Below are positions 9,090 through 49,954 of a stretch of 64,000 nt of DNA, piece by piece. Each line of letters begins with the position of its first letter. The stretch's first letter is position 1. The notes under the pieces were generated by a model. It made no database searches. It saw only the letters and a list, made by a program, of their open reading frames with translations, and was not told where the DNA came from. The position numbers and the translations under genes are program-made. This DNA is from Eledone cirrhosa (lineage: Eukaryota), in contig OZ024764.1 in assembly GCA_964016885.1 (NCBI GenBank), forward strand, positions 20,274,001 through 20,338,000. The letters are read 5' to 3'.

Positions 9090-10121
9090 ATGTCGAAAAA
9101 TATAGTAAAATCACCATTCCACTGTGATATCTGTGGTAAATCATTCTCTCGTAGTAATCACCTAACTACTCACAAACGTATTCATACAGGAGAGAAGCCA
9201 TATCACTGTGATATCTCTGGTAAATCATTCAGTTACGGTAGTAGCATCAGAGTTCACAAGCAAATTCATACAGGAGAGAAGCCACATCACTGTGACATCT
9301 GTAGTAAATCATTCTCTTGCAGAGATAGCTTAACTAATCACAAACGTATTCATACAGGAGAGAAGCCACATCACTGTGACATCTGTGGTAAATCATTCTC
9401 TTGCAGAGATAGCTTAACTACTCACAAACGTATTCATACAGGAGAGAAGCCATATCACTGTGATATCTGTGGTAAATCATTCGCTGACAGAAGTTGCTTA
9501 GCTACCCACAGACGTACTCATACAGGAGAGAAGCCATATCACTGTGACATCTGTGATAATTCATTCTCTCAGAGTAATCACCTAACTACTCACAAACGTA
9601 TTCATACAGGAGAGAAGACGTATCAGTGTGACATCTGTGGTAATTCATTCTCTCATAGTAATAACCTAACTACTCACAAACGTACTCATACGGGAGACAA
9701 ACCATATCACTGTGACATCTGTGGTAAATCATTCGCTGACAGAAGTTGCTTAGCTACCCACAGACGTACTCATACAGGAGAGAAGCTATATCACTGTGAC
9801 ATCTGTGGTAAATCATTCTCTCGTAGTAATCACCTAACTATCCACAAACGTACTCATACAGGAGAGAAGCCATATCACTGTGACATCTGTGGTAAATCAT
9901 TCTCTCAAAGTAATCACCTAACTCTCCACAAACGTACTCATACAGGAGAGAAGCCATATCACTGTGACATCTGTGGTAAATCATTCTCTCATAGTAATCA
10001 CCTAACTCTCCACAAACGTACTCATACAGGAGAGAAGCCATATCACTGTGACATCTGTGGTAAATCATTCTCTCAAAGCGGTAACTTAACCAAGCATGTG
10101 CGTATTCATACAGAAGTTTAG
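9090..10121 (+). CDS. C2H2 zinc-finger protein, 12 tandem fingers, no effector domain (343 aa)
   Basis: Open ORF of CxxC..HxxxH repeats with TGEKP linkers. Finger 2 has Cys->Ser. Confidence 0.93.
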
Positions 10122-10386
10122 CTGTATCAATATCAAACTCATTACATCATACTACAACAACAACAATTGTGTAGATCCATCATCCTTACTAAAACTGGGG
10201 TCAACCTTGTAGGTTTTACCTAGGACAGGGATCATAAAACCAGGTTTCCATTTTTGAAGCAGTGTTTGAAGATTTTGTGTAAATTAAAGTTTTTCACATT
10301 AAACTTTGATTTATTATACTTTAACAGGTAAGATATATATTTGTATTTTCAGTAAAGGTTGGGAACTTCTGTAATTTAAACCTGCC

Positions 10387-10392
10387 AATAAA
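10387..10392 (+). terminator. Putative polyadenylation signal of ZNF A
   Basis: AATAAA ~265 bp after the stop, followed by a GT-rich tract; conserved in B (~27394) and C (~50224). Confidence 0.45.
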
Positions 10393-10754
10393 ATGAAAAC
10401 TTTTGTTGTTGCTAGTCAGACATTGATATTAATTCTATTGTCCTGTACATTGTCTCAAATATCACAGATTAAACAGATTTTAACAATATCAACAGAAATC
10501 AATAACTTGTAAGCCTAATATCTAGCTTCCATTTTAACTATTTGATATTGTTGTTCCCCTCCTGTCTCTTCAGGTCTTTTAGATTTCAACTTCTATCTAC
10601 TGTACTATTCCATCACCAAGGCAACATTCATCTGGCTGGCAGCTTACATCAACTACAGATCTCATCAGTGGTTCACAACAGGCTGTCTGAAAGAAACTTC
10701 CAGATATCTTCTATATCATAGCTATCAATCTCCTCCTCCTTATCATATGTACCA

Positions 10755-11180
10755 CTCTCACAGTCCCTCTAGATCTTATATTTAACAGGGAGATCTTTTA
10801 CTATCCCTACTCTTTTCTCTAGATAGTTTTGTACCACTCTCACAGTCCCTATAGATCTTATATTTAACAGGGAGATTCTTTACTGTCTCTACCCTTTTCT
10901 CTAGGTTGTCTTATACCTCTCTCACAGTCCCTATATATATCTTATATTTAACAGGGAGATCTTTTACTATCCCTACCCTTTTCTCTAGGTTGTCTTGTAT
11001 CTCTCTCACAGTCCCTCTAGATCTTATATTTAACAGAGAGATCTTTTACTCTCCAACCCTTTTCTCTAGGTCGTCTTGTACCTCCCTCACAATCCCTGTA
11101 GATCTTATATTTAACAGGGAGATCTTTTACTCTCCAACCCTTCTACAGATAGTCTTGTATATGTCATTCCCTCTAGATCT
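10755..11180 (+). repeat. ~82-bp minisatellite (~5 copies)
   Basis: AGATCTTATATTTAACAGGGAGATCTTTTAC or close variants recur at 10771, 10853, 10937, 11019 and 11100. Also at 27780-28180 and 50610-51090. Confidence 0.9.
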
Positions 11181-11473
11181 TACACCTCGTATCTAGTCTA
11201 TGTTGAGTGGTACGTCCTTCTCCAGTAAAGGAGTTAATATTCCCAACCATCTGTCTATCCTGTTTTCTGATGAGAATGAAGTCAATCTAGTTTATCTCTT
11301 CACCTGATTGAAGTAACTAGATCAAGTAACTAGATGTTTTCCTGTAAGTTAGTGTTGCAGTGTTTGTGTCACCATGTAAGGTTTATATCTATTTTATATA
11401 GAGATGTAGTAAAGTTTTCTCTGTTGTATCTCTACTTTCTAAATATCTTTATAATGTTTCTCTACTATTTCAG

Positions 11474-11770
11474 AATATCACATGACCTTGACAGAAAAGA
11501 GTTTTTTAAAGACAACAGAAAGATGTTAAATTCAAGATATAAACTTGTTTTTATTCTGTGGTGAATTATGGTGAAATATTTCTTCTGAATTCAGATAAAT
11601 ATTTTCCTTTTTCACTGTCTGGAATATTTACAAGATGATTTTACATTCTGATTAAACTTTAGATATTTAGGAATATTTTCCAGAAGAGATGGGAAAATCA
11701 TTATACCACTGTAATATTTGTGGTAAAGTATTCTCTATTCTTTATATGTAGAACATCTAACTAAACATTT
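11474..11770 (+). pseudogene. Relic ZNF exon with one degenerate finger
   Basis: Acceptor TATTTCAG|AATATC mirrors that of the main exon. Encodes EEMGKSLYHCNICGKVFS. Shares CACTGTCTGGAAT..ACAAGATGATTTTA with the leader of ZNF C. Paralogs at 28465-28850, 32950-33140 and 51389-51700. Confidence 0.7.
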
Positions 11771-11879
11771 TAATTAACAAACTATTGTGCTATAGAATTG
11801 ACAAACTTGAACAATGTTTAATAAATGTTACAGATTTCTCCAAACTGTTGTTTACTAACTTCAATTTGAAGCTATATTA

Positions 11880-12243
11880 TCTATATACTACTAAAACTCT
11901 GTGATTGTGTCTTGTCCGTAATTTAATACAGCTAAAACAGTGCATAATGGGGAAATACTTTGAAAAGAATAAAACAATTTTTGTATAAATTGGAGCACAG
12001 GTTCCCAAGATACGGGGTTTTCTGGGTACCTTGATATAGATAGGGAGAGAAAGAGATAGTGGTTGTGAGAGTGAGGAGACAGATGGAAGAGAGAGAGAGA
12101 GAGCTGGTGGTGTTGTTTAATAAAATGTGTGTGTGTATATATATATATACGTATGTATATTTTAACTTTTAAAAATCATTTTTAAATGACTTTTAAAAAA
12201 TAGTTTTAAGGGAACGTGACCCAACAGGTCCCGGGTGGTCTAG
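11880..12243 (+). mobile_element. Non-autonomous Helitron
   Basis: Starts TCTATATACTACTAAAA, ends with a hairpin plus CTAG, sits between A and T with no TSD. Confidence 0.78.
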
Positions 12244-12650
12244 TTTGTTACTAAATACTAGATATTAGAGGGTCATGTTGTTCTAGATGTGCTGGAAGAG
12301 CCATTCCATCTCGTGAGGTTCACACCAGCAGCTAGCCACCTCAGCACCTATGGTGGTATATTTATTATATTATTTATTCTTTATCATTAACATTAATATA
12401 AAAGATAATTATATATTTTTAGAAAAGAACCTCTAATTTCATATAGCTTAGGGCTTCAGTAGGTAAAGTCTGGCCCTGCTTGTCTTGTATTTTTTAGGGG
12501 AGAAGTTAGGGAATACTGTTATTGTGTGAAAGTTTTCTAAATCTTCTTCAGCCACTAACATGGAGAAGATATTTCAGTAAGAAGGTTCACATCCTGACAT
12601 CTATAGCTGTTAACAATGAGATTGGAATTCATTATTAAACAAATGTTATA

Positions 12651-13170
12651 TCATCATCACTGTTTAACATCAGTTTTTCCACGCTGGCATGGGTTAGACG
12701 AGTTATCCTGTTGTAAGCAATGGCAGGTCAGGTGACCACGTGTTGCTCCTACAGAACCAATCTTGGTTTGGTTTCTACAGCTGGATGCCCTTCCTAGCAC
12801 CAACCTTATTTACATTGAGTACTGGGTGCTTTTTACTATCTCACCAACTCGACCACTTCACAGTGTGGGCTGGGTACTTTTTAACCTTTTGTCATGATAC
12901 CTACATGACCACTTTACAGTGAGTACTGGGTACTTTCTGTTGTGACTCTTACTTGACCACTTTACAGTGAGTACTGAGTACTTTGTCATGACACCTACAG
13001 TACCACTTTACAGTGAGTACTGGGTACTTTATGTCATGACACCTACAGTACCACTTTACAGTGTGGACTGGGTACTTTTTGTTGTGACACCTCCACGACC
13101 TCTTTACAGTGTGGACTGGGTACTTTTTGTTGTGACACCTACACGACCTCTTTACAGTGTTGGCAGTGAA
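12651..13170 (-). mobile_element. RTE 3'-tail element with 48-bp tandem repeats
   Basis: (TGA)n tail and GGAAGGGCATCCAGCTGTAGAAA (rc) are shared with the RTE 3'UTR at 30860-31005. Confidence 0.75.
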
Positions 13171-13278
13171 ATATCTAATGCACCAGCTTCAGTAATCAGA
13201 AGATCGCTGTTTTCTATATTATAATTTTATAATATACATATACACACACAAACACAAATATATATATATATATATATA

Positions 13279-16094
13279 GATGTGTGCTGCGTGCAAGAGG
13301 TGAGATGGAGAGGTGCCTCTGCGAGACTAGTCGTAGGCAAACATCTTAGCTATAAGCTTCTCTGGGTAGGTAAGGATGATGGGTTAGGGGGAGTAGGCAT
13401 TTTCCTGGCTGAGAGATGGATCAATAAGAGAATAGAGGTAGTTCAAGTTAGTAATAGAATAAGCTTAGATTAGTTGTAGGCAAGAGACTACTGACAATCA
13501 TCTCTGCCTATGTTCCCCAAGCAGGCCTAGGCAAAGATGAGAAAGACTGCTTTTACGAGAAACTTTTACAAACAGCCGCAATGACAGAGGACGGAGACAT
13601 CATTATGCTAGCAGGAGACTTCAATGGTCATGTTGGACTGCTCCAGGATGGTTATACTGGGGTACATGGTTACGGCTCAAGAAATGAAGGAGTGAGACTT
13701 CTTGAATTTTGTGATGCAGGTACATTGACTATTTGCAACACAAACTTCCAGAAACCTGCCAATCACCTAATAACCTACAAATCTGGCAAGCACATAAGCC
13801 AGATTGACTTCCTGCTAGTTAGGCAGCGGGAGAGGCAGATAGTGTCTAATACCAAGGCATACCCTCGGGAAGAATGTACCCCACAGCATAGGTTAGTTGT
13901 TAGTGATATCTCAGTAAGCAAGAGATGGAATGAGACATACAGGAAGGTGTGGAGAAGAAAGGTCTGGAAGCTAGAAGAGCTTTCACTAAAATACAAATTT
14001 AGGAAAGCCCTTCAAGATGTATATGACGAAAAAGAAGACGATTTAGAGACGTATGACATACATAACAATTGGAATTTCTTGCGTGACAACTTACTGCAGG
14101 CTACTGATGAAACTTGTGGTTGGAGCAGAGCTCCAACCAGACAGAGAGTGACCTGGTGGTGGAACAGCACGGTAGATAAGGCCATTAGAGACAAAAGACT
14201 AGCATGGAAGGCTTGGAAAAAGAGTGGGAGTAGGGAAGAATATACAGCCACTAAGAGAGAAGCTAGATGTCAAGTGTACTTAGCACACAGGGAGGCTGAG
14301 AGTAGGAGGTTTGCCAATGTTCTGCGACGGGAAGATCAGGGTCAATGCAAATCAGGATGTTGTTGGAGATAAATGTGTCCGGGATGATGCCGGTGTACTT
14401 AGTGTCACGAATGATCAGAAAGAGGAGGCCTGGAAATGTCATTATGAGAGACTGATGAATGTGGAGAATGAATGGGAGAAAGAGAAATTACCCTTAGTAG
14501 ATCTGACAGAGGGACCAGCTATTGAGATTGACGAATATAGGGTCCAAGAGGCGATTAAGGAAATGAAAAATGGTAAGGCTGCTGGACCATTGGGAATAGT
14601 TGCTGAGATGCTGAAGGCATCAGGGGACGTAGGCACTAAACTGGTTGCACGCATCATTAATCAGGCTATATATGGTGGTGTCATACCCAAAGACTGGTGC
14701 AGCAGTATTCTCATAAATTGCTACAAAGGTAAAGGGGATGCTCTGGAGAGGAGCAATTATAGGGGTATAAAACTGATAGATCAGTTATGAAAGTGGCAGA
14801 AAGGATATTAGCACAACTAATTAGAGAAAGGGTCAAACTAGATGAGATGCAGTTTAGTTTTGTGCCTGGGAAGAGTACAACCGATGCCCTCTTCTTGGTG
14901 AGACAATTGCAAGAGAGGTTCTTAGAGAAAAATAAGCCACTATACTTAGCCTTTGTTGACCTAGAGAAGACCTTTGATAGGGTACCCCGATCTGTCATCT
15001 GGTGGTCCCTAAGGAAACTAGGTGTTGAGGAATGGCTTGTGAGGACAGTGCAAGCTATGTACAAGTAGGAGTACATCAAGGTTTGGTCCTCAGTTCGCTC
15101 TTGTTCATTATAGTCCTCCAAGTCATAACAGAGGAGTTTAAGACTGGCTGCCCATGGGAACTTCTCTATGCTGACGATATGGTTTTTATATCAGAATCAG
15201 TAGAGGAGCTAGAGCATAAATTCTGGCTTTGGAAGCAAGAGGACTGAGAGTGAACCTAGCTAAGTCAAAAGTGTTAATGAGTAGAAAAGAGGACAAAACT
15301 CTGATTCTATTAGGGAAATGGCCATGTTCGATATGCAGAAAAGGAGCTGGCATAAATTCTATAATGTACACAATGCAGATCCTGGGCACACGAGATGTAG
15401 CGGGATAGCAGGCAAACTAACAGGTAGGGAGAAATACGTATGCAGTAGATGTACAGGGAAATTAGACAGTAGAAGTCGCATTGATAGACACAGTTTTCAA
15501 ATGCAGGAGGGTGCTATAGAAGTGATGGATAGCTTCCGGTACCTAGGAGATCAGATGAGCATGGGAGGAGGGTGTTCCGAGGCCATAGTAACTAGAATAA
15601 GGACGGGTTGTAAGACGTTTAGGGAGCTGCTTCCTCTGCTGACGAAGAAAGGCCGGTTGTATGATGCCTATGTGAGCACCGCAATGCTGCATGGTAGTGA
15701 GACATGGGCAGCAACTGCAGAAATGAGACATCCGTTGGATGTGCAGTGTAAATGTGCGTGAACGTCCCAGCATGAATGTGTTGAGAGAGAAACTGTGTCT
15801 GAGATGGATAGAATGTAGTGTACGGGGGAGAAGACTGAGGTGGTATGGACATGTGATGCGCATGGAGGATGACCGATGGGTGAAGAAGTGCCAGGAAATG
15901 ACAGTTGAAGGAAGACGTGGTAGAGGTAGACCACGAAAAACATGGGCGGAGGTGGTTAGAACAGACCTCACATCGTTGAAGCTCACGGTGGAGATGACGA
16001 AGGACCGTGATGAGTGGAGAGATGTTGTGCTGAATAAGACCCGTCCCACCCTTGCGAGCAGGGAATAGCGGACGTGAAATGATGATGATGATGA
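13279..16094 (+). mobile_element. RTE-clade LINE, near full length, frameshifted
   Basis: APE (CVQEVRW, GDFNGHVG, HRLV), RT (AFVDLEK, LYADD), GRGRPRKTW and a (GAT)n tail. Absent at the equivalent (TA)n site of unit B (~34110-34127). Confidence 0.95.
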
Positions 16095-16096
16095 TA

Positions 16097-17463
16097 CAGT
16101 GGTACCTTGACTTACGAGTGTCCCAACTATTCGGCTGATTTTTTGCGTTGAGTTCCAGGGTAAAATTCGGGTTGCGAGTCAGCTTCAGATGCCCCGCCAC
16201 TAGTTGGCATAGCGACCGCCACAGGGAATACCATAACACCCGCCCAGCATCCCATGGCTTCGAAGAAAGTGAGGGCGAAGGACAGTTCTGAGAAGAAGAA
16301 GCAGATGATGTGTATTGAATTAAAGAAAGAAATTATAGAAAAACATGACCAAGGTGTGTGTAGTGGACTTGGTGAAGCAGTACGAGTGATGAAACAGAAC
16401 TTTTTTGGAAGAAGATGCCACGGAGGACTTATATAATGGCAGAGGAGAAGAGGATGCCTGGCCACAAACCCATAAAGGATAGGCTAACCCTCGCACTGTG
16501 CCAATGTGAGCGGTGACTGTAAGATTAAGTTGCTGCTCATTTATCATTCAGACAATTCCAGAGTCTGAAAGAAAAATTGCAGGTTATGTGGAGGGCAAAC
16601 CCGAGGACATGGGTCACCAGGCAGTTCTTTGTGGAGTGGGTGAATTTGGTCTTTGGTCCTGACGTTAAAAAATATCTCCAGGAAAATAACCTACCCCTGC
16701 AAACCTTCTTGTTTTGGACAATACACCTGCTCACCAACCTAACCTTGAAGAGTTCAAGTTTATAAAGGTTCTCTACCTTCCACCAAACACCACCCCTATC
16801 CTACAGCCCAAGGACCAGCAGGTACTTTCTAATTTCAAGAAGCTCTTCACCAAGCACCTGTTCAGTCGCTGCTTTGAAGTGACGGGGAGCACAAACCTCA
16901 CCCTTGAGAGGTCTGGAAGGACCATTATAACATCGTGATATACCTCAGAATTATCGATATGACCTGGCAGGGTCTTACAAAGAGGACCTTGACCTCTACA
17001 TGGAAGAAGCTGTGGCCTGAAGTTGTGTTTAAAACAGACTTTGAAAGACTGGAACCCGAAGCGGCAGTGGTGGAGGAGATTGTACCCCTCCATGGGCCTG
17101 GACATGGATGAAGGTGACATCAACGAGCTCATCGAGGAGCACTCCCAGGAGATGACAACGAAGGAATTAAAGGAGCTACAGACACAGCAACACACGGAGT
17201 TTTTGCAGGAAATAGGTGACACAGAGGAGGTTATCTGAACAAGTGAGATGAAACAAACCTTATTAGACAGGTTTTTATTGAAAATCCCTGCAGATAAAAA
17301 CACGTAACAAAACAAACTGTGGTTTGGGGGGGGGGGGGGGGGTCTGGAACGGATTAATGGCATTTTATTTTATTTCAGTGGGGAAAATTGATTTGACATA
17401 CGAGTAATTTAAGTTACGAGGTCCTCCACGGAACAAATTAAACTCATAAGTCAAGGTACAACA

Positions 17464-17464
<1 letters not shown>
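16097..17464 (+). mobile_element. Tigger/pogo DNA transposon, internally deleted
   Basis: TA followed by 23-bp TIR CAGTGGTACCTTGACTTACGAGT; imperfect rc at 17442-17464. Encodes ELKKEIIEK, DNTPAH and LPPNTT..QPxDQ. Confidence 0.92.
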
Positions 17465-17497
<33 letters not shown>

Positions 17498-17502
17498 GAA
17501 GG

Positions 17503-17671
17503 AACGATCGACTTTCGTCAAATCGGACCGAGGAAGCAATGTTTCCATTGGTCTTTCCAATTGCTAGTACTAACGGTCGCAATTCCAGGTAGAAGGAACA
17601 ACGTGAAATAAAGTGTCTTGCTCAAGGTCATAACGCATCGCCTGATCCAGGAAGCGAACTCACAACCTCAA
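17503..17671 (-). mobile_element. tRNA-derived SINE, inverted, A-box missing
   Basis: Reverse complement of ~56312-56483. Confidence 0.8.
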
Positions 17672-18836
17672 GATATATATATATATAGTTAAATATTAGA
17701 CAGGAACAAAAAACAGAGGCAGTGCAAATGGTAGTTTATAACCTACCCCTGCAAACCTTGCTTGCACTGTCCTCACAAGCCATTCCTCAACACCTAGAGA
17801 GAGACAAACACATATATACCCCTACTACAGTAAAACATAAAACATATGTAAGGGGAGACAACTCTCGTTACATCCCCTCTTCTTTTTGACATACGATCTT
17901 TAGATACTTTGTACAATGGAATCTACTTTATTTTGTGTCCTAAGTAGATTTCTGTTTAAGTATTTACGAGATTCACAATGATTCACGTAACCAAGTTACT
18001 TACATAGAGATATATTTCACATAGAATCACAACAAATGAAAATATTAAGTCAACACTCTGTCAATCAGTCTCACATCACATGGGGTGCCGGAGTCTCCCT
18101 CTAATACTTTCTGAGACAGTCTTACCTCGAGTGATAGCAAGGCTAAGATGTTGGAACTACCAAACACCCTCATATGTATCACCTGACACCTCGGTAAGGA
18201 AAGCTGCCAACGATAACAGGGACCTCGTTGTCAGGGACCTATCTCCTCCAAACTTCTCCAACACCACAGACTAGAATATTCTACTCTTTATTCCCTATCA
18301 AATATATTTCTGTCTAGTCATTTATCTTGTATCTTGTATATGTATTTTCAAAACTAACTGTCACATTTGTGAGACCCCAGTTAGTGATGTTTTTGTCTCC
18401 CTCCCACATCCTACATGCTGTAGTAAAAGTGAGGGTCACTGCTTCCGTAGACGAACGAAATAAAAGCTAAACTACCAGTAATTATCGGCAAAGTATTTAT
18501 TCCAGTCTGTGATGTTTGAGAAGCTGGGCTATTGACAACGAAGTTGTGGTCACTGTTGGCGGCTGGCTTTACCGAAGTACCCGATGACTCTTGTGAGGGT
18601 ACTTAGCTGTTCTGGCGGTTTAGCCTCCATATGACCCGATCTTACCGAGATACCCGGTGATCTCTGTCAGGGTACTTAGCTGTTCTGGTTGCTTAGCCTC
18701 CATATGACCCGATCTTACCGAGATACCCGGTGATCTCTGTAAGAGTACTTAGCTGTTCTATTTTAATTTCATTTACTGTTTTTTACTTCATTTTTTTATT
18801 ACAAACTTTACATAATTTAATTCGGTAAAAATATTT

Positions 18837-18911
18837 TTACGTCACAAAAAAACTTGACCTTTGACATTGAAGCATGCGCAGTGGTGCAGTTGTCGACTTC
18901 CTGTCCACGTG
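18837..18911 (+). promoter_or_regulatory. Putative ZNF promoter B
   Basis: TTACGTCA, TGACCTTTGAC, GCATGCGCA (18872), ACTTCCTG and CACGTG. Confidence 0.68.
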
Positions 18912-19043
18912 TTAGTCTTCCTACAACATCATTTAGACAACATTTCTGTAAATACTAAACACCTGAGACTATAATGTAAATATTATGTCTATTAATATTG
19001 TAGATTTAAGCTCACTTTTCACATCACAAATATATATTTTCTT

Positions 19044-25840: not shown

Positions 25841-26172
25841 TGTTAGTCAGCACATTCTTCACCAAAGAAGGCCTTAGTATTTATTACAGTCCATTTATCA
25901 ATATAGAAATATTATATGAAATTTGTACTGATGTATTACAAGTTTCTCAGTATCTTATAATGTTCTTTTATTATTTCAGAATACCAGAGGACATTGGCAT
26001 TAAAGAGCACGTTACATCAGACATATCCTCAACATTAACCATTTCTAATGAAATACACTAACCATCATTTTCAAATAATTTTGAAAACACTCAACACTTT
26101 GAAGTGATTTAGTAATATAACTAAATTTCTCAGTATTAAGCTGTGAATTATGTGAGAAACTGAGGTGATTGA

Positions 26173-27012
<840 letters not shown>

Positions 27013-28958
27013 CTATCCCCAAACGTACTCATACAGGAGAGAAGCCATATCACTGTGACATCTGTGGTAAATCATTCTCTCAAAGTGGTACCTTAACCAA
27101 GCATGTGCGTATTCATAAAAAAGTTTGGCTGTATCAATATCAAACTCATTACATCATACTACAACAACAACAATTGTGTAGATCCATCATCCTGGCTAAA
27201 ACTGGGGTTAACCTTGTAGGTTTTACCTATGACAGGGATCATAAAACCAGGTTTCCATTTTTGAAGCAGTGTTTGAAGATTTTGTGTAAATTAAAGTTTT
27301 TCACATTAAACTTTGATTTATTATACTTTAACAGGTAAGATATATATTTGTATTTTTAGTAAAGGTTGGGAACTTCTGTAATTTAAACCTGCCAATAAAA
27401 TGAAAACTTTTGTTGTTGTTAGTCAGACATTGATATTAATTCTATTGTCCTGTACATTGTCTCAAATATCACAGATTAAACAGATTTTAACAATATCAAC
27501 AGAAATCAATAACTTGTAAGCCTAATATCTAGCTTCCATTTTAACTATTTGATATTGTTGTTCCCCTCCTGTCTCTTCAGGTCTTTTAGATTTCAACTTC
27601 TATCTACTGTACTATTCCATCACCAAGGCAACATTCATCTGGCTGGCAGCTTACATCAACTACAGATCTCATCAGTGGTTCACAACAGGCTGTCTGAAAG
27701 AAACTTCCAGATATCTTCTATGTCATAGCTATCAATCTCCTCCTCCTTATTATATGTATCATGTAGAACATCTCTGAATTTATATTTAACAAGGAGATCT
27801 TTTACTATCCCTAACCTTGTCTCTAGGTTGTCTTGTACCTCTCTCACAGTTCATCTAGATCTTATATTTAACAGGGAGATGTTTTACTATCCCTACCCTT
27901 TTCTCTAGGTTGTCTTGTACCTCTCACAGTCCCTCTAGATCTTATATTTAACAGGGAGATCTTTTACTATCTCTACCTCTTTCTCTAGGTTGTCTTGTAC
28001 CTCTCTCACAGTCCCTCTAGATCTTATATTTAACAGGGAGATCTTTTACTATCTCTACCTCTTTCTCTAGGTGGTGTTGTACCTCTCTCACAGTCCCTGT
28101 AGATCTTATATTTAACAGGGAGATCTTTTACTCTCCAACCCTTCTTTCTCCAGATAGTCTTGTATCTGTCAGTCCCTCTAGATATTACACCTAGTATCTA
28201 GTCTATGTTGAGTGGTACGTCCTTCTCCAGTAAAGGAGTTAATATTCCCAACCATCTGTCTATCCTGTTTTCTGATGAGAATGAAGTCAATCTAGTTTAT
28301 CTCTTCACCTGATTGAAGTAACTAGATGGTTTCCTGTAAGTTAGTGTTGCAGTGTTTGTGTCACCATGTAAGGTATATATCTATTAATATAGAGATGTAG
28401 TAAAGTTTTCACTGTTGTATCTCTATTTTCTAAATATCTTAATAATGTTTCTCTACTATTTCAGAATATCACAGGACCTTTACAGAAAAGAGTCTTTTAA
28501 AGACAACAGAAAGATGTTACATACAAGTGATATAAACTTGTTTAGTCTGTGGTGAATTATGGTGAAATATTTCTTCTGAATTGAGATAAATAACAACATT
28601 TTCCTTTTTCACTGTCTGGAATATTTACAAGATGATTTTACATTCTGATTAAACTTTGGATATTTACAAAGGAGTTTTCAAAATATTTGGATATTGACAA
28701 ATATCACATTTGATAAAATTATGAACAATAGAAATATTTACATCAACATAGGAATATTTTCCAGAAGAGATGGGAAAATCATTATACCACTGTAATATTT
28801 GTGGTAAAGTATTCTCTCTTCTTTATATGTAGAACATCTAACTAAACACTTTAACAAACTATTGTGCTATAGAATTGACAAACTTGAGGAATGTTTAATA
28901 AATGTTACTGATAGAATGTTTAATAAATGTTACTGATAGAATGTTTAATAAATGTTAC

Positions 28959-31005
28959 TGATAGAGGGACCAGCAGTGTTAGTCGAAGGTAGTATAATAA
29001 GTAAGGCAATCAAAGATATGAAGACGGGTAAGGCGGCTGGGCCTTCGGAAATAGTTGCTGAGATGCTGAAAGCCTCCGGTACGGTGGGACACACCATGGT
29101 CACCCGGATAGTAAACCAAGTCATACAGAATGGGGTTGTTCCGAAGGACTGGCGTAGCAGCATCATCGTTAACTGTTACAAGGGTAAAGGAGACGCCCTA
29201 GATAGGAGTTACTATAGAGGCATTAAATTAATCGACCAGGTCATGAAGGTCACGGAAAAAGTAATAGTGCAACTAATCAGAGAGAGAATTGATCTAGATG
29301 AAATGCAGTTCGGGTTTGTGTCAGGCAAAAGTACCACAGACGCTCTTTTCATTGTACGACAACTACAGGAGATGTACCTAGCTAAAAGTAAACCCCTATA
29401 CTTAGCTTTTGTCGACTTGGAGAAAGCCTTCGACAGAGTCCCCCGTTCCATTATCTGGTGGGCTCTTAGAAAACTAGGTGTTGACGAATGGCTTGTGAGA
29501 GCCATACAAGCCATGTATAGAGAAACAGTCAGCAAGGCTAGAATTAACAACGAATATAGTGAAGAGTTTAGCGTAAAAGTTGGCGTCCATCAGGGCTCTG
29601 TTCTTAGCCCCCTACTATTTATTATTGCCCTTCAGGCTATAACAGAGGAGTTCAAGACCGGCTGCCCATGGGAACTCCTATACACAGATGATCTAACGCT
29701 CATAGCTGAATCAATGGCCGAGCTAGAGAAGAAATTCCAAACATGGAAGCACGGCCTAGAATCAAAAGGCCTTAAAATTAACCTGGCTAAGACTAAAGTT
29801 CTAGTTTGTAGGAAAGAAAATAAGGCGCCGGTCCCCTCCGGGAAATGGCCATGCTCAGTGTGTAGGAAAGGCGTAGGTAGAAACTCCATTTTATGTCCCA
29901 AATGCAAAGTATGAGTGCATAAAAGATGTAGTGTGATCACAGGTAAGCTAACTAAGAACATAGATTTTACATGTGGCCGGTGCTCTGGTGCAATAAGTAG
30001 CAGCAAGTGCCCACGAAATACTAGCTCATTCAACTGCGCAGAGGGTTCTATAGAAATAGTGGACAGCTTCCGTTACCTGGGTGACAAAATCAGCAGTGGG
30101 GGAGGGTGCTCTGAAAGTACAGTAGCTAGAGTCAGAACTGGATGGAAAAAGTTCAGAGAGCTTATAATACTATTAGCCGCTAAAGGGTTGTCCCTAAAAA
30201 TGAAAGGCAGGTTGTACGATGCCTGCATACGAACAGCAATGTTGCATGGCAGTGAGACCTGGGCATTGTGTGCAGAGGATATACGCAGATTAGAGAGGAA
30301 CGAAGTTTGCATGCTCCGTTGGATGTGTCATAGTAATATACGTGAACGGCAAAGCATAAACGAACTAAGGAAAAAATTAGAAATAAGAGGGATCAGATGT
30401 TTTCTCGAGAGAAGGCTACGTTGGTATGGTCACGTGATGCACATGAAAGACGACAGCTGTATAACAAAGTGCAGGGCAATAAAGATAGATGGTAGCCACG
30501 GAGTAGGCAGACCCAGGATAACCTGGGACGAGCTGATAAACTCCGACCTCACACACTTACACCTCTCCAAGACAATGTCACTGGACCGAGACCTTTGGCG
30601 GTACTCAGTAACAGAGAAGACCCGCCTTACCTAAATACAAAGTAAAACCTCCTAGTCAGTAGGCATCTCTAACAAAATTCACCCCGTCCCACTCTATCCA
30701 CACTGCCCCCTTCAATGCAAAGTTATGTTGGTGCCACAACATCCAGGCTGAAACAAACGAGATCGTGTAGGTGTCACGACAAAAAAACACACAGTCCATG
30801 CTTTAATGTGACCGTGTAGGCAACACGGTAAAAACCTCCCAGTCCCACACTGTAAATGTGGTTGGTGTTAGGAAGGGCATCCAGCTGTAGAAAACCCGCC
30901 AGACAGTCCTATGCGAGCAAGACAACCACTCTTGCCTCAAGTAGGAAAACTCCCATCCAAACCAATGCAAGCATGGAACAGGGACGTTAAACGATGATGA
31001 TGATG
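28959..31005 (+). mobile_element. Young 5'-truncated RTE LINE
   Basis: ORFs 28952-29914 and 29915-30634 are in frame, split by one TGA. Motifs AFVDLEKAFD, GVHQGSVLSP and YTDD; (GAT)n tail. Empty sites at ~11831, 33205 and 51760. Confidence 0.95.
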
Positions 31006-41268: not shown

Positions 41269-41567
41269 TGTGGTTAGAAAAAGCTATCTCACCGCTTTTC
41301 ACAGGCGCCGCTAAACTCCACTGCAGGTTACTCCTCTTCCACGTGCCTCCAACTGCTTAACACCGGGAGCTGCCCAAAACTCGCGTCCACACCGTTTGCT
41401 GGTCACCACTAGAGAGAGGCCCTCTGCTGGCCCTTCCGGTCGAGCATCCTTCCGGCCAAACACCCTTCCTGTCGAGCACTCCCCCGCCTCCGGCCACCGC
41501 ACGCCACACACCCTTCCGGTCGAGCACTCCCCCGCCTCCGGCCACCGCACGCCACACCATACCCACA
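41269..41567 (-). repeat. 3' LTR (2 x 48-bp repeat)
   Basis: Direct repeat of 45083-45565. Confidence 0.92.
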
Positions 41568-44500
41568 CGCCCCCCTGATCTCAAGGATCAATTTCCCCCT
41601 CGTCCCTCTGCATATGAAAGTCTGCTGTCCAGGTCGGTAGTCTACGACTTTGTTGCGATCTTCGTAGTATTGGGGCAGAGCTCTGGGTTCCCACCTCATC
41701 TTGGGTTTCCTCTTCCTCGGAGTCCGTCGACACAGTGATTCTTCTTACGTCCAGGACATGACGTGGTACCCCGTCCACAGACACATTGTTCTTTGAATTT
41801 ACGGCCGTCACCTTCCCCCTTCCCCATTGAGATGGGGAAGGGGGAAGGTGACGACTTCTTCGCCTACCTGCACGAATGCACTCTCTCTCCCCACTGGCCG
41901 TTGTGGTGGCGTGCACGGGTGCCGCCACTTGTATCTGAATACTGCTCTGTGTGGCACCGATTCCTCGACCTGTCCAACCCGAGGGGACATTGTACCAGAA
42001 CACTGCCTCCATTGGTGAGATATGGCCCCGCTCCGCCATTGCCTTGATCGTCCGGTGGTGTCGCTCCACGATTCCATTCCCGCTCGGCCTCTGCGCCGCT
42101 CTGAAGAAACGGTCCACCTTCCATCCATCGAGCATCTCCCTCAGTGCCTCCGAGTGGAACGCTGCGCCGTTGTCCATCAGCAGTTCGTCCACAGGGACCC
42201 GCTCCAAGAACACCTCTCTCAACGTCCGCATGATTTCCTCGGCCGTTCCAGTCTTCATCTCCCTCCATATCGCCTTCCGTCCTGGTCCACAGTCGACCAT
42301 CGAGAGGTACATTCCCTGTCGGTAGTGCGTTACATCCACCGCCAATCGTTTCCAGTCGCGATCCACTGGGAGGCTTCCCGTTTCGTGTACACCCGAGGTG
42401 GATCAATGGACTGACATCGGATGCAGCCTCTAACCACCCTTTGAACACTGTGACTGTTAACGTCTGAGTCGATTCTCCTGGCTAGGAACAGGCTCCTATC
42501 CACTCCCATGTGGTGCATGTCATGCAACCCTTTCAGATCCGACTCGGTCAGCCGACACACGGCAGCTATCTCATCTTCTACCTCCTCCGGCGCTTCCATC
42601 CAGGCTTTCTTCACTCTAGTTAAGATGTCCGCCCTATTTTTCTCTGAGGGCACGAACACTACGCTCAGCCTCAGGTCGAACTCGGTTGCCAGCTCTCCTA
42701 AAGTTCCCAGGCGGCGCTTTATCAGCATCTCCGCCGCGCCTCTCTTCTCACTGGTGAGCACTGATCTCACCTATCCGAGTACAGTAGCCGAGTCAGTGCG
42801 TATCTCGATGGTGCGCAGCCCCCACCGCAGGGCGAGGTTCACCCCTCTCAACACCGCGTCCAGCTCGGCCACATTGATGTGGCTGCAGCCGTTCTTCTCT
42901 CTAAGCCAGGCTGCATCCTCGACCTCAACACCTCCTATCTCCAACGTGACACTCAGCGCTATGCTGCTGGTATAGCACCATACGGTCCCGCTCTTTGATT
43001 TGGGAACATACCAGCGTCGCCGCACTGGGTCCTCGGCCTTCACCCTCCCCACGATCTCCTGCATCATGGCCACCGTCCTCTCTCCCGCTCGTCTCTTGAC
43101 ATAGCTGCATGCCGTCCGGAGCCACCCAGCAATCGGGTAGTGACCCACCAACTTTCCACACACCGAGAAAAGCTCCCGCCTACTCATACTTGGGCCCAGT
43201 TCTGGAACTTCATTTCCCCTCTGGAATACCAAGACGCCCGTCCTGTCTCGCCGTAGCCTAAGTCCCAGTGCGGCTCCTCCCTCCAACGCTTCTGACGGCT
43301 TCGCAGCCAGTCCATACCCCTGTAAATGGCTCGTGACCTCCGCCGCCGCCACCACAGACTCGTCCACTAGGATGTCGTCAATATAGGAGTTAGTGGCCCA
43401 CTTCATCTTGTCGGCCTTTTCCAGAATGGTCTTGAGGACCGCCGCCATGATCTTCGGTGCGGAGCTCAGCCCGAATCCGAGCTTGGTCAGGCAATATGTC
43501 CGGCCCTTATACCTGACCAGCTGATACTGCCAGAGCTTCTCATCTATATGCAATTGCAAGTATGCCGACTTTAGATCCACGATCGCTGAATCCCCCGAGC
43601 TCCCGATAGTCCAGCACCGGCCTCACCTTGCTCTTCGTGGGTTGCGCCACCGCCATCAACGGCAATACTCCGCACTTCACCTCCTCCTTCCAGGGAAGCA
43701 GTATGCCCTCCTCAATCCATCTCTCTACCTCGCTCCTAATAGTTTCCCTTCAATGTGTGTTGATAGCAGCCCACTGTGGTCTTCAGTGTTGGTGGTTCTC
43801 CCTTCCAGTACCACTCAACAACCCATCGCTGCCCATCAAACACGGCCTTGAAGTCTTTGTCCTGTACAGTGTAAGCGGGGTATTTCTCCTCGTGGGCCTT
43901 CTGGTTCTCATGACGTGCACTCACAGCGCATACCGATGCAGCGGCGCCAAACGACACACCGACGTTGTTCACTGTGACGCCCCCTAGACGGCCAATCGCG
44001 TCCATGCCCATAACCGCGCTGATCCCATCCACCACACTGTCTACCACGATGGCGGAAAGCCTCCTTCCCCGTACCGCTATATCCATCTCGCTGCGACCTC
44101 AGCATTCAATTTTCCTGCCGTCGACTGCCCTTACGCTGCTCTTCCCTCCCCACCTCTGCGCCACCCCCGCGGTCACCAGTGTCGTTGTACAGCCCGTATC
44201 CACGAGGGCTCGCTGTGGCTTCCCCCTCACGAAGACTTCCACCACGGGCAGCGCTGCTACTCGTAAGGGGCAACTACCGGCGCAGTAGTTCCCCTTGGAT
44301 CGTTTCCCTGGTCGCAGTTGGTAGCGATGTGGCCTGGTCGCTTACACCGGTAGCAAATTATCTCCGGATTCGACTCTCTACAGTCTCTAGCCATGTGCGG
44401 GCCCTGGCACCGAAAACAGCGCCCTCTAAACGCACGTGGACGGCCGCGTGCCGAGGTTGCCTCCCTTTCACCATTTCGCTACCAGGTGTCCTGAGCCTCC

Positions 44501-45082
44501 GTAGTCGCTATCGCCGCGACACTCTTTTTGGCATCTTCCGCTATGATCCGGGCTTGTTCCACCAGTGAACGCATTTCCATCTCTTTATAACCTGGGACTT
44601 GCTGCAGTTTCACCGTTATGTCGTCCGGAAATCCATTGATGAACGCCAACCGCACCGTGCGTTCGCATTCCGCCTGGGAACCGGCCAACATGGCCAACCG
44701 CCTTATTTCCGCTGCGAAAATGTCGACGCGCTCACCATTCCACCTGATTCTCGCCAGCTTAGCAAAAGCCACCAACGGTCCCTCGGCGAATGCATCCATC
44801 AGACGCCTCTCAATCTTCTGCGCATCTCTTTGGCTGTGCTCGTCCAACTCAAGGAAGAGTACCAACGCGTCCCCCTCGAGGTACAATGCCATGAGGCCGG
44901 CCACGTCCTCTATCTTCTGCAAGCTTGCGACCAGCCGAACCTTCCGCAGCCAAGCGACAACATCACCTTCCCCGGTGAATGCCCTGATAGCTTCGTTCAT
45001 CCGTAGTCTTGTCGCCATCTTCTGATTTGTCTAGCGGCAAGTGTTTTTTTTTTTTTTTTTTTTTTTTTCAGTCGCCGAAATA

Positions 45083-45565
45083 GCTTTTCACAGGCGCCGC
45101 TAAACTCCACTGCAGGTTACTCCCCTTCCACGTGCCTCCAACTGCTTAACACCGGGAGCTGCCCAAAACTCGCTTCCACACCGTTTGCTGGTCACCACTA
45201 GAGAGAGGCCCTCTGCTGGCCCTTCCGGTCGAGCATCCTTCCGGCCAAACACCTCCGGCCACCGCACGCCACACACCCTTCCGGTCGAGCACTCCCCCGC
45301 CTCCGGCCACCCCACGCCACACACCCTTCCGGTCGAGCACTCCCCCGCCACCGGCCACCCCACGCCACACACCCTTCCGGTCGAGCACTCCCCCGCCTCC
45401 GGCCACCCCACGCCACACACCCTTCCGGTCGAGCACTCCCCCGCCTCCGGCCACCCCACGCCACACACCCTTCCGGTCGAGCACTCCCCCGCCACCGGCC
45501 ACCCCACGCCACACACCCTTCCGGTCGAGCACTCCCCCGCCACCCCACGCCACACCATACCCACA
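45083..45565 (-). repeat. 5' LTR (6 x 48-bp repeat, inner end missing)
   Basis: Lacks the terminal ~24 bp present at 41269-41293. Confidence 0.9.
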
Positions 45566-45854: not shown

Positions 45855-47712
45855 CCATCCTTATTCTAGATATTATGGCCCACAACACCCTCCCCCCTTG
45901 CTAATCTGATCACCTAGGTATCAGAAGCTATCAACCACCTCTGTAGATCCTACCTGCATTTGAAAAATGTGTCTATCACTGCGACTTCTACTGTCAAATT
46001 TCCCTGTACATCTATTGCATATGTAGTTTTCTCTATCTGTTAGTTTGCCTGCTATCCCACTACATCTCTTGTGTACCCAAGATCTGCATTGTGTACATTA
46101 TAGAATTTATGCCAGTTCCTTTTCTGCATATCGAACATGGCCATTTCCCTGACGGAATCAGGGTTTTGTCCTCATTTCTACTCATCAACACTTTTGTATT
46201 AGCTAGGTTCACTCTCAGTCCTCTTGATTCCAACTGCTGTTGCAATAGCCGGAATTTATTCTCTAGCTCCTCTACTGATTCTGCTATAAGAACCATATCG
46301 TCATCATAGAGAAGTTCCCATTGGCAGCCAGTCTTAAACTCTTCTGTTATGACTTGGAGGACTCTAATGAACAAGAGCGGGCTGAGGACCAAACCCTGAT
46401 GTACTCCTGCATCTGTAATTCCTCACTAAACTCCATGCCTACCCTCACTTTACTGACAGCACCTCTGTACATAGCTTGCACTGTCCTCACAAACTATTCC
46501 TCTACACCTAGTTTCCTTAGGGACCACCAGATGACAGATTGGGGTACTCTATAAAAGGCCTTCTCTAGGTCAACAAAAACTAAGTATAGTGGTTTATTCT
46601 TCTCTAAGAACCTCTCTTGTAGTTGTCTCACTAAGAAGAGGGCATCTGTTTGACCCTTTCTCTAAGTTGCGCTAGTATTCTTTCTATCACTTTCATAACC
46701 TGATCCATCAGTTTTATACCCCTATAATTACTCCTATCCAGAACATCCCCTTTACCTTTACCTCAATTTATGAGAATAATGCTGCACCAGTCTTTGTGGG
46801 TGACACCACCATATATAGCTTGATTAATGATGCATGCAACCAGTTTAATTCCTACTTCTCCTGATGCCTTCAGCATCTCAGCAACTATCCCCAACAGTCC
46901 AGCGGACCTACCATTTTTCATTTCCTTAATTGCCTCTTGGACCCTATAGTCGTCAATCTCAATAGCTGGTCCCTCTGTCGGGTCTACTGAGGGTAGTTTC
47001 TCTCCCTTTCATTCTCCACATTCATCAGTCTCTCATAATGACATTTCCAGGCCTCCTTTTTTTTAAAAATCAGTGACACTAAGTGCACCAACATCCTGAT
47101 TTACACTGACACACTGCCTTGCAATGTGGAACACCGCACATCTCTGATCTCCCCATCGCAGGACATTGGCAAACCTTCTCCTCTCAGCCTCCCTGCATGT
47201 TAAGTAAACCTGACATCTAGCTTCTCTCTTAGTGGCTGTGAATAGGTCTTTACCTCTACCATTTTTCCAAGTCTCTAATGGCTCTATCTACCGTGCTGTT
47301 CCACCAACAGGTCACCCTCTGTCTGGTTGGAGCTCTGCTCCAGCCACAAATTTTTTCAGTAACCTGCAGTAAGTTGTCACGTAAGAAATTCCAGTTATCA
47401 TCCATGTCATAGGACTCTAAATCGTCTTCTTTTTCGTCATACACATCTTGAAAGGCTTTTCTAAATTTATATTTTAGTGAAAGGTCTTTTAAGTTTCCAG
47501 ACCTTCCTTTTTCACACTTTCTCGTATGTCTCACTTTGTTCTTGCTTACTGACATGTCACTAACGACTAACCCATGTTGGGGGGTTACATTGTTCCCTGG
47601 GGTATGCCTTAGTATTTGACATCATCTATCTGTCTTACTCCCTATCTAGCAAGAAGTCAATCTGTCTCATGTGCTCACCTGTTTGGTAGGTTATTAGGTG
47701 GTTGGTAGGTTT
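45855..47712 (-). mobile_element. RTE-clade LINE, decayed (paralog of 5531-7785)
   Basis: Collinear, with extra deletions at both ends. Confidence 0.9.
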
Positions 47713-49342
47713 ATTATAACTAGGTCTCTGTCATTGTGGTTATCTCTACTTATTCCTTTTCTACATATGGAGCAGGGCCACTTTCCTGAAGAGGTCAGGG
47801 TCTTCTCTCCTATCCATTACCACTTTAGTTTTGGCTAAGTATATTCTCAGAACTTAACATTTCAAATTCTATATCTATAGTTGGTCATCTACATAGAGAA
47901 GTTTCCATAGACAGCCAGTCTTAAACCTCTCTGTTATGGCTTGGAGAACTATGATGAACAAGTGGGCTAAGAACTAAACCATGATGAACTCATACCTATA
48001 CCTTCAATTCCTCACTAGACACTTTACTGACAGCTTCTCACAAGCCATTCTTCTACACCTAATTTCTTTAACCCTTTAGTATATAAACTGGCCATGTCTG
48101 GCCAGAATTCTCTCACATCTTTCTGTTCAAACTGGCCGTAACTGGTCACTTATACTTATGTTAAGGTATTGTTCTCAAAATAAATAACATGAAAATCTCA
48201 TAAATTTGATATTATGTGAGATAAAGCATTTACTGTGAAAATATAATAGTAAATATAGAGTAATGTGAATACTAAAGGGTTAATCTGATGTCACTAATAA
48301 CTACTTTTATCAGTCAGTATAATATAATGTCACTAATAACTACTTTTATCAGTCAGTTTAATCTACTGCCACTAATAACTAACGTATGTTAGTCAGCACA
48401 TTCTTCACCAAGGAAGCCCTTAGTATTTATTACAGTCCATTTATCAATATAGAAATATTTTATGAAAGTTGTACTGACGTATTACAAGTTTCTCAGTATC
48501 TTAAAATGTTCTTTTATTATTTCAGAATACCAGAGGACATTGGCATTAAAGAGCACGTTACATCAGACATATCCTCAACATTAACCATTTCTAATGAAAG
48601 ACACTACCCATCATTTCCAAATAATTTTGAAAACACTCAACACTTTGAAGGGATTTAGTAATATAACTAAATTTCTCAGTATTAAGCTGCTAGTTGGAAC
48701 ATAACTTTGCACAATTTCATGAACTTATGATGGAAAGTTTTTAGATAAATATAAAGACTGATATGAAAAGGATAAAACACTTTTATATCAGTTGTTTCAT
48801 CAACACCATTATTTAAAGACTAAAGGAAGCTGTTATACAGAACAGATTCAACCTTGTTTATATAAATCTATGGGAGAAATACTGGGAAATATTTCTTGTA
48901 AACTCAATAACACTTCTATTCTTTGCTGTCTGGAATATGTAGAAGATACAAAATAAAGCTGAAGAAATTCACAAATGATTTTGTAAGATCTTCATATATT
49001 GACAAAGATGATAGTAGATGGAACTACAGGAGTAGAAATATTTCCATTATTGGAGGAATAACTAATCAAATGAAGACCAGAAAAATTAGATTCTTCACTG
49101 TCTGGAATTTGTACAAGATGATTTTATATGTATATTAAACTTGAAGAGATCTACAAAACAGTTTGTATCATCTTTAAATATAAAGAAAGACCAAGTTGAT
49201 GTAAATATATCTGGAGGAATATGTTTTAGGAATAATATTATAAACATAAAGAAGAAAAATATCCATATATTGACAGAAGAAAAATATTAAAACTGTGAAT
49301 TATGTGAGAAACTGAGGTCATTGATATCTTTTAGTGGGTGTT

Positions 49343-49954
49343 ATGTCGAAAAATATAGTAAAATCACCATTCCACTGTGATATCTGTGGTAAATCATTCT
49401 CTCGTAGTAATCAGCTAACTACTCACAAACGTATTCATACAGGAGAGAAGCCTTATCACTGTCAAATCTGTGGTAAATCATTCAGTTACGGTAGTAGCAT
49501 CAGAGTTCACAAACAAATTCATACAGGAGAGAAGCCACATCACTGTGACATCTGTAGTAAATCATTCTCTTGCAGATATATCTTAACTAATCACAAACGT
49601 TTTCATACAGGAGAGAAACCATATCACTGTGACATCTGCGGTAATTCATTCTCTCAGAGTAATCACCTAATTACTCACAAACGTATTCATACAGGAGAGA
49701 AACCATATCACTGTGATATCTGTGGTAAAACATTCTCTGACAGAAGTAGCTTTGTTAAACACCAACGTACTCATACAGGAGAGAAGCCATATCACTGTGA
49801 CATCTGTGGTAAATCATTCTCTCGTAGTAATCACCTAACTACTCACAAACGTACTGATACAGGAGAGAAGCCATATCACTGTGACATCTGTGGTAAATCA
49901 TTCTCTCAAAGTGGTAACTTAACCAAGCATGTGCATGTTCATACAGAAGTTTAG
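49343..49954 (+). CDS. C2H2 zinc-finger protein, 7 fingers (203 aa)
   Basis: ATG at 49343 matches the [12 protein letters not shown] start of the paralogs. Finger 6 has His->Asp. Confidence 0.9.
   Translation: MSKNIVKSPFHCDICGKSFSRSNQLTTHKRIHTGEKPYHCQICGKSFSYGSSIRVHKQIHTGEKPHHCDICSKSFSCRYILTNHKRFHTGEKPYHCDICGNSFSQSNHLITHKRIHTGEKPYHCDICGKTFSDRSSFVKHQRTHTGEKPYHCDICGKSFSRSNHLTTHKRTDTGEKPYHCDICGKSFSQSGNLTKHVHVHTEV

What the first reader, a model, noticed from the sequence alone, without database searches (positions are those of the whole stretch)
9090..49954. Finger arrays diverge much faster than their flanks, with fixed end fingers and shuffled middle fingers
Seen helices. A: RSNH, YGSS, CRDS, CRDS, DRSC, QSNH, HSNN, DRSC, RSNH, QSNH, HSNH, QSGN. 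B: RSNH, KNNS, QSSH, DSSS, HKSN, R-NN, KNNN, QSNQ, HSKT, (QHKT, QSGT). C: RSNQ, YGSS, CRYI, QSNH, DRSS, RSNH, QSGN. Linkers and 3'UTRs are almost identical, while DNA-contact residues and finger number (12/11/7) vary. Inferred: an 84-bp coding minisatellite evolving by unequal exchange, as in PRDM9 and KRAB-ZNFs. It could be a KRAB-less transposon-recognition system; that function is a hypothesis.
Basis: partly seen in the sequence, partly recalled or inferred. Interest (0 to 1): 0.78.

Follow-up and report, generated by a model that had tools for sequence, protein, structure and literature searches.

The report
Octopus-type zinc-finger cluster reshuffling shared fingers
The three arrays are neighbours in a 4.7-million-base block of an estimated 210-235 near-identical zinc-finger-only genes that differ mainly in which shared 84-base finger modules they carry and in what order, likely rearranged by recombination within and between genes, a known kind of gene cluster whose DNA targets are untested.

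Summary
In detail: all 30 listed helices and the 12/11/7 counts are in the sequence, and the 3' flanks differ by only 1.1-1.8%. B is frameshifted. The three genes belong to one tandem cluster (G000 C25, 19.13-23.88 Mb; 188 exact start motifs; about 210-235 genes estimated) of finger-only C2H2 genes of octopus type.

The arrays do not mutate faster than their flanks. In sister genes, matched fingers and flanks differ equally (0.76% vs 0.82%). What changes is finger number and order: 69% of fingers have an identical copy in another gene, yet 116 of 137 genes have distinct contact fingerprints. Exchange between genes is inferred; fingers are barely more alike within a gene than between genes, unlike PRDM9. 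End fingers are only partly fixed.

Zinc ligands and reading frames are under purifying selection, and a spliced family contig exists. The excess of change at contact positions (omega 1.7) disappears in single-change fingers (0.87), so ongoing positive selection is not shown. Transposon recognition is untested here and already proposed in print for octopus zinc fingers. Verdict: a real, well-resolved new member of a known kind.

The parts
9090..10121 (+). Gene [15 protein letters not shown] + 12 C2H2 fingers + TEV stop; finger 2 has C>S
   Evidence: Pfam zinc-finger families only as credible hits
26191..27127 (+). Gene B array: 11 fingers; finger 6 is 81 bp; 7-bp deletion after finger 9 shifts the frame (ORF 26191-27012, 273 aa)
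   Evidence: nearest 5' relative (C25:22533051, 0.4%) has a full ORF with the same finger run
49343..49954 (+). Gene C ORF: 7 fingers; finger 6 has H>D; fingers 3-7 match the end of gene C25:22308967 while fingers 1-2 are of the RSNQ-YGSS type
8621..10327 (+). Zinc-finger exon of A (acceptor TTTCAG before 8621, donor GTAAGA after 10327); equivalents B 25980-27334, C 48526-50164
   Evidence: a contig of run X3 joins 30 other letters to 8621 and another leaves at 10327; coordinates
11474..11503 (+). Start of the downstream non-coding exon (after TTTCAG); equivalents at 28465 and 51389
   Evidence: the X3 loose end at 10327 matches here
2959..3062 (+). Likely promoter and first non-coding exon of A, ending at a GTAAGT donor; equivalents at 18872 (B), 37853 (C), 57510 (next unit)
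   Evidence: inferred from sequence; 166 exact copies of its 35-mer in G000; junction not confirmed by reads
8621..9089 (+). 5' leader of A with several upstream ATGs and a neutrally evolving open frame (IPEDIG...); leader forms of about 211, 467 and 817 nt across copies
   Evidence: omega 0.95; no Pfam match
1555..17837 (+). One whole duplication unit (about 16-20 kb); further units start near 17838, 36849 and 56545
   Evidence: self-BLAST, mostly 90-97% identity blocks

Best explanation
A, B and C are three of an estimated 210-235 finger-only C2H2 zinc-finger genes in one recently amplified tandem cluster, and their arrays are different in-frame assemblies of a shared, older pool of fingers, likely rearranged by unequal crossover and gene conversion within and between paralogs. 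Shown: whole gene units are duplicated; flanks differ by 2-4%; fingers are shared verbatim between genes; sister genes differ by 1-6-finger blocks (one of 13) while point changes run at flank rate; zinc ligands and frames are purified. Inferred: near-identical flanks and 84-bp scaffolds let paralogs misalign; crossovers also fall inside fingers and make new helices; end fingers are more uniform because they sit next to homogenised flanks. Least certain: the proteins likely bind DNA as a diversifying set of effector-less readers, most plausibly of repeats.
For: 63 of 63 RSNH-start copies lie on C25 19.13-23.83 Mb; 188 start motifs, 166 promoter motifs and 135 3' motifs genome-wide. 1269 of 1844 clean fingers are identical to a finger of another gene and 1601 are within 1 nt, while random distinct fingers differ by 17.7%. 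116 distinct fingerprints in 137 genes. Sister edges: 398/48688 flank vs 398/52416 finger differences, synonymous/flank rate 1.01, 75 block events on 55 edges. Architecture is identical in 16 of 22 pairs below 0.6% flank divergence and in 0 of 300 sampled pairs above 2%. 184 finger types occur in at least 2 genes (average linkage, 4 nt), against a longest array of 28. 405 of 561 site pairs inside the finger show four gametes, and linkage decays with distance. Stops: 5 seen vs 36.5 expected; C/H/F/L omega 0.25-0.41. 93 of 137 genes have a full ORF and 25 more reach at least 85%. Spliced contigs in run X3.
Against: The chimera scan gave only weak polarity: prefix-sharing pairs d5 0.0185 vs d3 0.0226; suffix-sharing pairs 0.0208 vs 0.0215. 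Flank segments on one side are as uncorrelated as those across the array, so crossovers are not shown to concentrate in arrays. 25 of 35 distinct small indels are frameshifts, 19 of 137 ORFs are under 85% and 137 of 1872 fingers lack a ligand, so many copies decay. Long leaders carry up to 17 upstream ATGs; translation is unproven. The last finger's N-terminal half is also uniform, which a simple edge model does not predict. Recurrent mutation can also give four gametes. No binding data.
Confidence: 0.72

Rival explanations
1. Arms-race reading: contact residues are under ongoing positive selection because the proteins would recognise and silence young transposons without KRAB.
For: Contact omega 1.70 (bootstrap CI 1.25-2.28) among sister genes, 1.63 after removing CpG-bearing codons, 1.3-1.64 on the finger network. 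Pool-wide pN at contacts about 0.5 vs pS 0.16-0.20 elsewhere. Octopus ZNF predicted motifs are enriched in TEs (PMC10547256, passages).
Against: Omega is 0.87 (0.40-1.68) in fingers with at most one difference and 1.32 (0.80-2.12) away from rearrangement junctions; neutral conversion alone gives 0.72-1.38. Novel contact states have omega 0.88. Synonymous divergence is also raised in the helix (0.30 vs 0.12-0.20). No effector domain. Binding not tested.
Confidence: 0.35
2. Mostly neutral turnover: a recombination-prone gene array amplifies and reshuffles by drift; only a subset of copies matters and selection just keeps fingers folded.
For: Recent contact changes are near neutral. Frameshifts are 25 of 35 small-indel signatures. 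B is broken. Upstream-ATG-rich leaders and an intron about 206 nt after the stop could lower expression.
Against: Stops are depleted about sevenfold. In-frame indels have spread (48 occurrences from 10 signatures) and frameshifts have not (34 from 25). The deep pool is biased to contact sites.
Confidence: 0.3
3. PRDM9-like evolution: each gene's array is a minisatellite homogenised within the gene, with diversity only at contact sites.
For: 84-bp period, local tandem runs (for example KNTKLTR x13), near-identical fingers are 3.7 times more common within genes (2.4% vs 0.65%).
Against: Within-gene finger identity 84%; contact share of diversity 0.30 (0.39 with position 2) against 0.41-0.68 for the complete PRDM9 rows seen in PMC5519329. 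No SET, SSXRD or KRAB.
Confidence: 0.07
4. Functional anchoring: the first (RSN[H/Q]) and last (xxG[N/T]LTK) fingers are kept by selection for a shared binding end or partner, not by an edge effect.
For: First-finger and last-finger diversity is far below the middle; 123 of 188 start motifs continue exactly into an RS helix.
Against: Diversity falls gradually over the last three fingers and in synonymous-rich scaffold blocks too; last-finger position -1 is nearly as varied as in middle fingers (entropy 2.48 vs 3.10).
Confidence: 0.3

Closest known systems
Coleoid (octopus) C2H2 zinc-finger expansions and clusters (PMC9068888, passages; PMC12513265, abstract and Discussion part 1)
   Same: Multi-megabase tandem arrays of C2H2 genes; CDICGKSF...HTGEKPY finger style. 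The highest-identity hit among 120 listed is an Octopus sinensis ZNF239-like protein at 63%.
   Different: In the passages read, these papers count genes and expression; they do not describe a cluster-wide finger pool or rates of finger-block change. The species of G000 was not determined.
Young mouse Chr4 KRAB-ZFP cluster (PMC12575710, passages)
   Same: 5-7 Mb young cluster, large segmental duplications of gene blocks, many distinct fingerprint arrays. Here blocks repeat at offsets of about 866 and 908 kb.
   Different: Mouse genes carry KRAB and have ChIP-shown ERV targets, with 38-47 fingerprints per strain. Here there is no KRAB, 116 fingerprints in 137 genes, and no target data.
Mammalian poly-ZF paralog divergence by finger gain and loss (PMC2604467, passages)
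   Same: Deletion or duplication of whole fingers is the main source of difference; diversity at contact residues.
   Different: That paper found short conversions in a few genes (most genes only in chicken). Here 69% of fingers have an identical copy in another gene; part of that reflects recent whole-gene duplication.
PRDM9 finger minisatellite (PMC5519329, passages)
   Same: 84-bp coding repeat with rapid finger turnover.
   Different: No KRAB-SSXRD-SET, no strong within-gene homogenisation, lower contact share of diversity.
Effector-less ZF271-like/APEZ genes of Hemiptera (PMC6444547, passages) and zebrafish FiNZ-ZNFs (PMC10547256)
   Same: KRAB-less lineage-specific poly-ZF expansions with clusters, pseudogenes and variable finger number.
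   Different: FiNZ genes have a conserved N-terminal sequence and shown TE repression; none is found here. The hemipteran clusters described hold 4-8 genes.

Membership tests
Poly-C2H2 zinc-finger genes | Tandem C-x2-C-x12-H-x3-H fingers with TGEKP linkers | tested here: met
   1735 of 1872 fingers keep all four ligands
Coleoid C2H2 cluster expansions | Lineage-specific multi-megabase tandem array of C2H2 genes | tested here: met
Coleoid C2H2 cluster expansions | Host is a coleoid cephalopod | tested here: inconclusive
   Best identity 63% to an Octopus sinensis protein in a saturated search of 8000 candidates; 3.0-Gb genome; finger style recalled as octopus-like
Coleoid C2H2 cluster expansions | Neural or embryonic expression | not testable with these tools
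   Spliced contigs in X3 show transcription of some family member; library and tissue are not on record
KRAB-ZFP | N-terminal KRAB domain | tested here: not met
   ORFs start 11 aa before finger 1 with an in-frame stop just upstream in the 8 commonest leader ends (110 of 156 genes); no KRAB in Pfam scans; an unseen upstream coding exon spliced to another acceptor is not excluded
KRAB-ZFP | Binds and represses TEs | not testable with these tools
   no motif predictor or binding data available
PRDM9 | PR/SET, SSXRD and KRAB domains | tested here: not met
PRDM9 | Within-array homogenisation with diversity confined to contact residues | tested here: not met
   84% within-gene identity; statistic 0.30 vs 0.41-0.68 in the rows seen
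Arms-race ZNFs (KZNF, FiNZ) | dN/dS above 1 at positions -1, 2, 3, 6 | tested here: inconclusive
   1.70 overall, 0.87 in single-change fingers, neutral conversion up to 1.38
FiNZ-ZNF | Conserved N-terminal accessory sequence | tested here: not met
   Upstream frame has omega 0.95 with stops and frameshifts; no direct comparison with the FiNZ profile was run

The most novel reading that the evidence does not exclude
The cluster is a germline combinatorial library: about 200 effector-less genes draw on one pool of roughly 260 contact quartets, recombine whole and half fingers between genes, and so generate new long DNA-binding specificities far faster than point mutation, as an invertebrate anti-transposon repertoire working without KRAB.
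Probability: 0.25. Interest if true: 0.75.

Novelty: new member of a known kind. Interest (0 to 1): 0.44.

Why it matters
Octopus zinc-finger expansions are well known, but what they bind and how they diversify is open (PMC12513265 Discussion; PMC12988792 passages). This cluster separates the two sources of change: reshuffling is fast and point mutation runs at the neutral rate. Because 40 contact quartets cover 61% of 1872 fingers, measuring a few dozen fingers could predict targets for most of the cluster and test the transposon hypothesis directly. It also shows that contact-site dN/dS in such clusters can be inflated by recombination.

Tried and rejected
Faster point mutation in arrays: rejected. 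A mobile element carrying a zinc-finger gene: rejected, since all 63 listed copies of one class sit in one 4.7-Mb block; 88 of the 188 start-motif hits were not listed. Descent of all fingers from one ancestral array: rejected, 184 shared types (56 even at 8 nt) vs a longest array of 28. CpG mutability as the cause of the contact excess: it explains 16 of 29 changes at -1, but omega stays 1.63 without CpG codons. A coding N-terminal domain in the leader: neutral, no Pfam match. Crossovers concentrated in arrays: not shown. The first 5'/3' flank comparison was spoiled by misaligned flanks and was redone with BLAST-anchored segments. Pair 22440167/22443085 is an artefact of overlapping flanks. 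The protein search was saturated by generic zinc fingers. The upstream exon junction remains unconfirmed by reads. The 2015 octopus genome paper was not held. Two look-ups of earlier findings returned nothing. No structure, complex or motif prediction was run.
Full report
OBSERVATION. The 620 bp after the arrays differ by 1.1-1.8%. B carries a 7-bp deletion after finger 9, so its ORF ends at 273 aa. Four of the 30 fingers have lost a zinc ligand. Pfam finds zinc-finger families as the only credible hits and no KRAB, SET, BTB, SCAN or ZAD among the 25 families shown per protein.

CONTEXT. Self-BLAST shows units of about 16-20 kb starting near 1555, 17838, 36849 and 56545. In G000 the 29-nt start motif has 188 exact matches, of which 100 were listed. 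The 3' motif has 135 and a promoter-like 35-mer 166. All 63 copies of the RSNH-start class lie on C25 19.13-23.83 Mb. From the share of my genes that keep the 3' motif, the cluster holds about 209-234 genes. I parsed 156. Forty loci were picked from the RS-first-finger list, so first-finger counts in my sample lean to RS; the unbiased figure is 123 of 188. The host is probably an octopod: the best identity among 120 hits is 63% to an Octopus sinensis protein.

GENE ANATOMY. A contig of run X3 joins 30 foreign letters to 8621, just after TTTCAG. Another leaves at 10327 (GTAAGA) and continues with the sequence at 11474, after TTTCAG. X3's library is not on record; I infer RNA from these junctions, and the contigs may come from any family member. 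The coding exon therefore runs 8621-10327 and there is an intron about 206 nt after the stop. A first exon at about 2959-3062 is inferred from sequence only. The protein is 11 residues plus fingers. The leader frame IPEDIG... has omega 0.95 and no Pfam match.

WHAT DIVERGES. Flank segments differ by 1.9-3.7% on average between copies. Among 1844 ungapped, complete fingers from 154 genes, 1269 are identical to a finger in another gene and 1601 are within 1 nt, while distinct fingers differ by 17.7% on average. Gapped and nearly all last fingers were left out of this set. On a spanning tree of flank distance, 55 edges below 1.6% were usable; 14 were dropped because the arrays could not be aligned, and one gene was dropped for overlapping flanks. 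Flanks differ at 398/48688 sites and matched fingers at 398/52416; synonymous rate equals flank rate (1.01); 75 finger-block events occurred, 36 of one finger and the rest of 2-6 fingers, with one of 13. Matching was capped at 4 nt per finger, which trims the finger figure. Architecture is the same in 16 of 22 pairs below 0.6% flank divergence (one of the 22 is an artefact pair), 10 of 30 at 0.6-1.2%, 1 of 150 sampled at 1.2-2% and 0 of 300 sampled above 2%. There are 261 contact quartets and 116 fingerprints in 137 genes, and finger counts span 6-28 (one 2-finger remnant aside), median 13. So arrays change by reshuffling, not by faster mutation.

MECHANISM. The pool (184 types in at least two genes at 4 nt; 56 at 8 nt) exceeds any single array (28), and synonymous divergence between types (0.12-0.30) far exceeds flank divergence. 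The pool is therefore older than the homogenised flanks, which requires exchange between loci of fingers, flanks or both (inference). Fingers are hardly more alike within genes (13.6 nt) than between them (14.6 nt). Inside the finger, 405 of 561 site pairs show four gametes and linkage decays with distance (75 KNTK-type fingers left out), consistent with crossovers that build new helices from halves. B looks like a recombinant: 0.4% from C25:22533051 on the 5' side, lacking four of its fingers, and 2.1% from it on the 3' side with a different last finger. C joins an RSNQ-YGSS start to the last five fingers of C25:22308967. Against this, the overall chimera signal is weak and flanks are equally mosaic on one side of the array.

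END FINGERS. First fingers show 25 helices and last fingers 43 in 137 genes. Scaffold diversity declines over the last three fingers. An edge effect next to homogenised flanks is my preferred reading; functional anchoring is not excluded.

SELECTION. Purifying selection is clear: 5 stops vs 36.5 expected and omega 0.29 at C/H/F/L on single-step edges; 93 of 137 full ORFs, 25 at 85% or more, 19 shorter. Frameshifts make up 25 of 35 indel signatures, so decay is common. At contacts, omega is 1.70 (1.25-2.28) in sisters and 1.63 without CpG codons. It falls to 0.87 (0.40-1.68) in fingers with at most one difference, and neutral conversion yields 0.72-1.38. Novel states give 0.88. Contacts are thus at least unconstrained. 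Older diversifying selection is likely (pN about 0.5 vs pS 0.16-0.20 elsewhere and 0.30 in the helix), but ongoing positive selection is not shown.

COMPARISON. Multi-megabase C2H2 arrays in coleoids are in print (PMC9068888, passages; PMC12513265, abstract and Discussion part 1). Predicted TE binding by octopus ZNFs and high entropy at base-contacting residues are in PMC10547256 (passages) and discussed in PMC12988792 (passages). Finger gain and loss among paralogs is in PMC2604467 (passages). A young cluster growing by segmental duplication is in PMC12575710 (passages), and effector-less families in PMC6444547 (passages). PMC13218726 (passages) adds only the cuttlefish expansions. The PRDM9 statistic of PMC5519329 (passages) is 0.41-0.68 in the rows seen and 0.30 here. 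Five searches listed no paper describing a cluster-wide finger pool in an octopus; the library lacks most subscription papers and supplements were not read.

VERDICT. A real feature, correctly seen, and a new member of a known kind. The added value is the measured split between fast reshuffling and neutral-rate mutation. Interest 0.44.

Noticed in passing
window 41294-45370: LTR retroelement on the minus strand, with RT, RNase H-like and integrase matches in separate frames; terminal repeats 41294-41557 and 45083-45370 are 89.6% identical. Inserted upstream of gene C's coding exon.
   Followed up: partly
window 5500-8200, 13458-15791, 28952-30631, 62971-63999: Broken LINE copies with RT or endonuclease matches; the one at 5500-8200 is shared by the A, B and C units.
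   Followed up: partly
G000 C25:20353478, 20560953, 19997909: A subfamily with long runs of one helix (KNTKLTR, 13 in a row) and altered linkers (HKLSHTEEKPY); possibly a different binding mode.
   Followed up: no
G000 C25 21.06-22.01 Mb and 21.84-23.14 Mb: Gene blocks repeated at offsets of about 866.5 kb (5 pairs) and about 908.5 kb (4 pairs), nearly identical: recent segmental duplications or assembly duplications.
   Followed up: partly
window 10328-11473: Intron starting about 206 nt after the stop codon, donor found in 126 of 138 genes; AATAAA at 10387 offers an alternative 3' end. It could expose transcripts to nonsense-mediated decay (inference).
   Followed up: partly
window 8621-9089, 25980-26190, 48526-49342: Three main leader lengths (about 211, 467, 817 nt) with 1-17 upstream ATGs; the short form is a genomic deletion.
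   Followed up: partly
14 genes, for example G000 C25:20632351: A shared alternative C-terminus ending TGVL just before the usual end.
   Followed up: no
finger position H1+2 (CGT codon): 22 of 30 amino-acid changes between sister genes are CpG transitions, and 16 of 29 at position -1, suggesting a methylated cluster (methylation inferred).
   Followed up: partly
window 53902-55405 and 1-600; 59768-61114; about 3757-4110: DNA-transposon fragment with a Spin-doc zinc finger; a second retroelement-like frame without Pfam match (class recalled, not tested); an element with terminal inverted repeats seen by eye.
   Followed up: no
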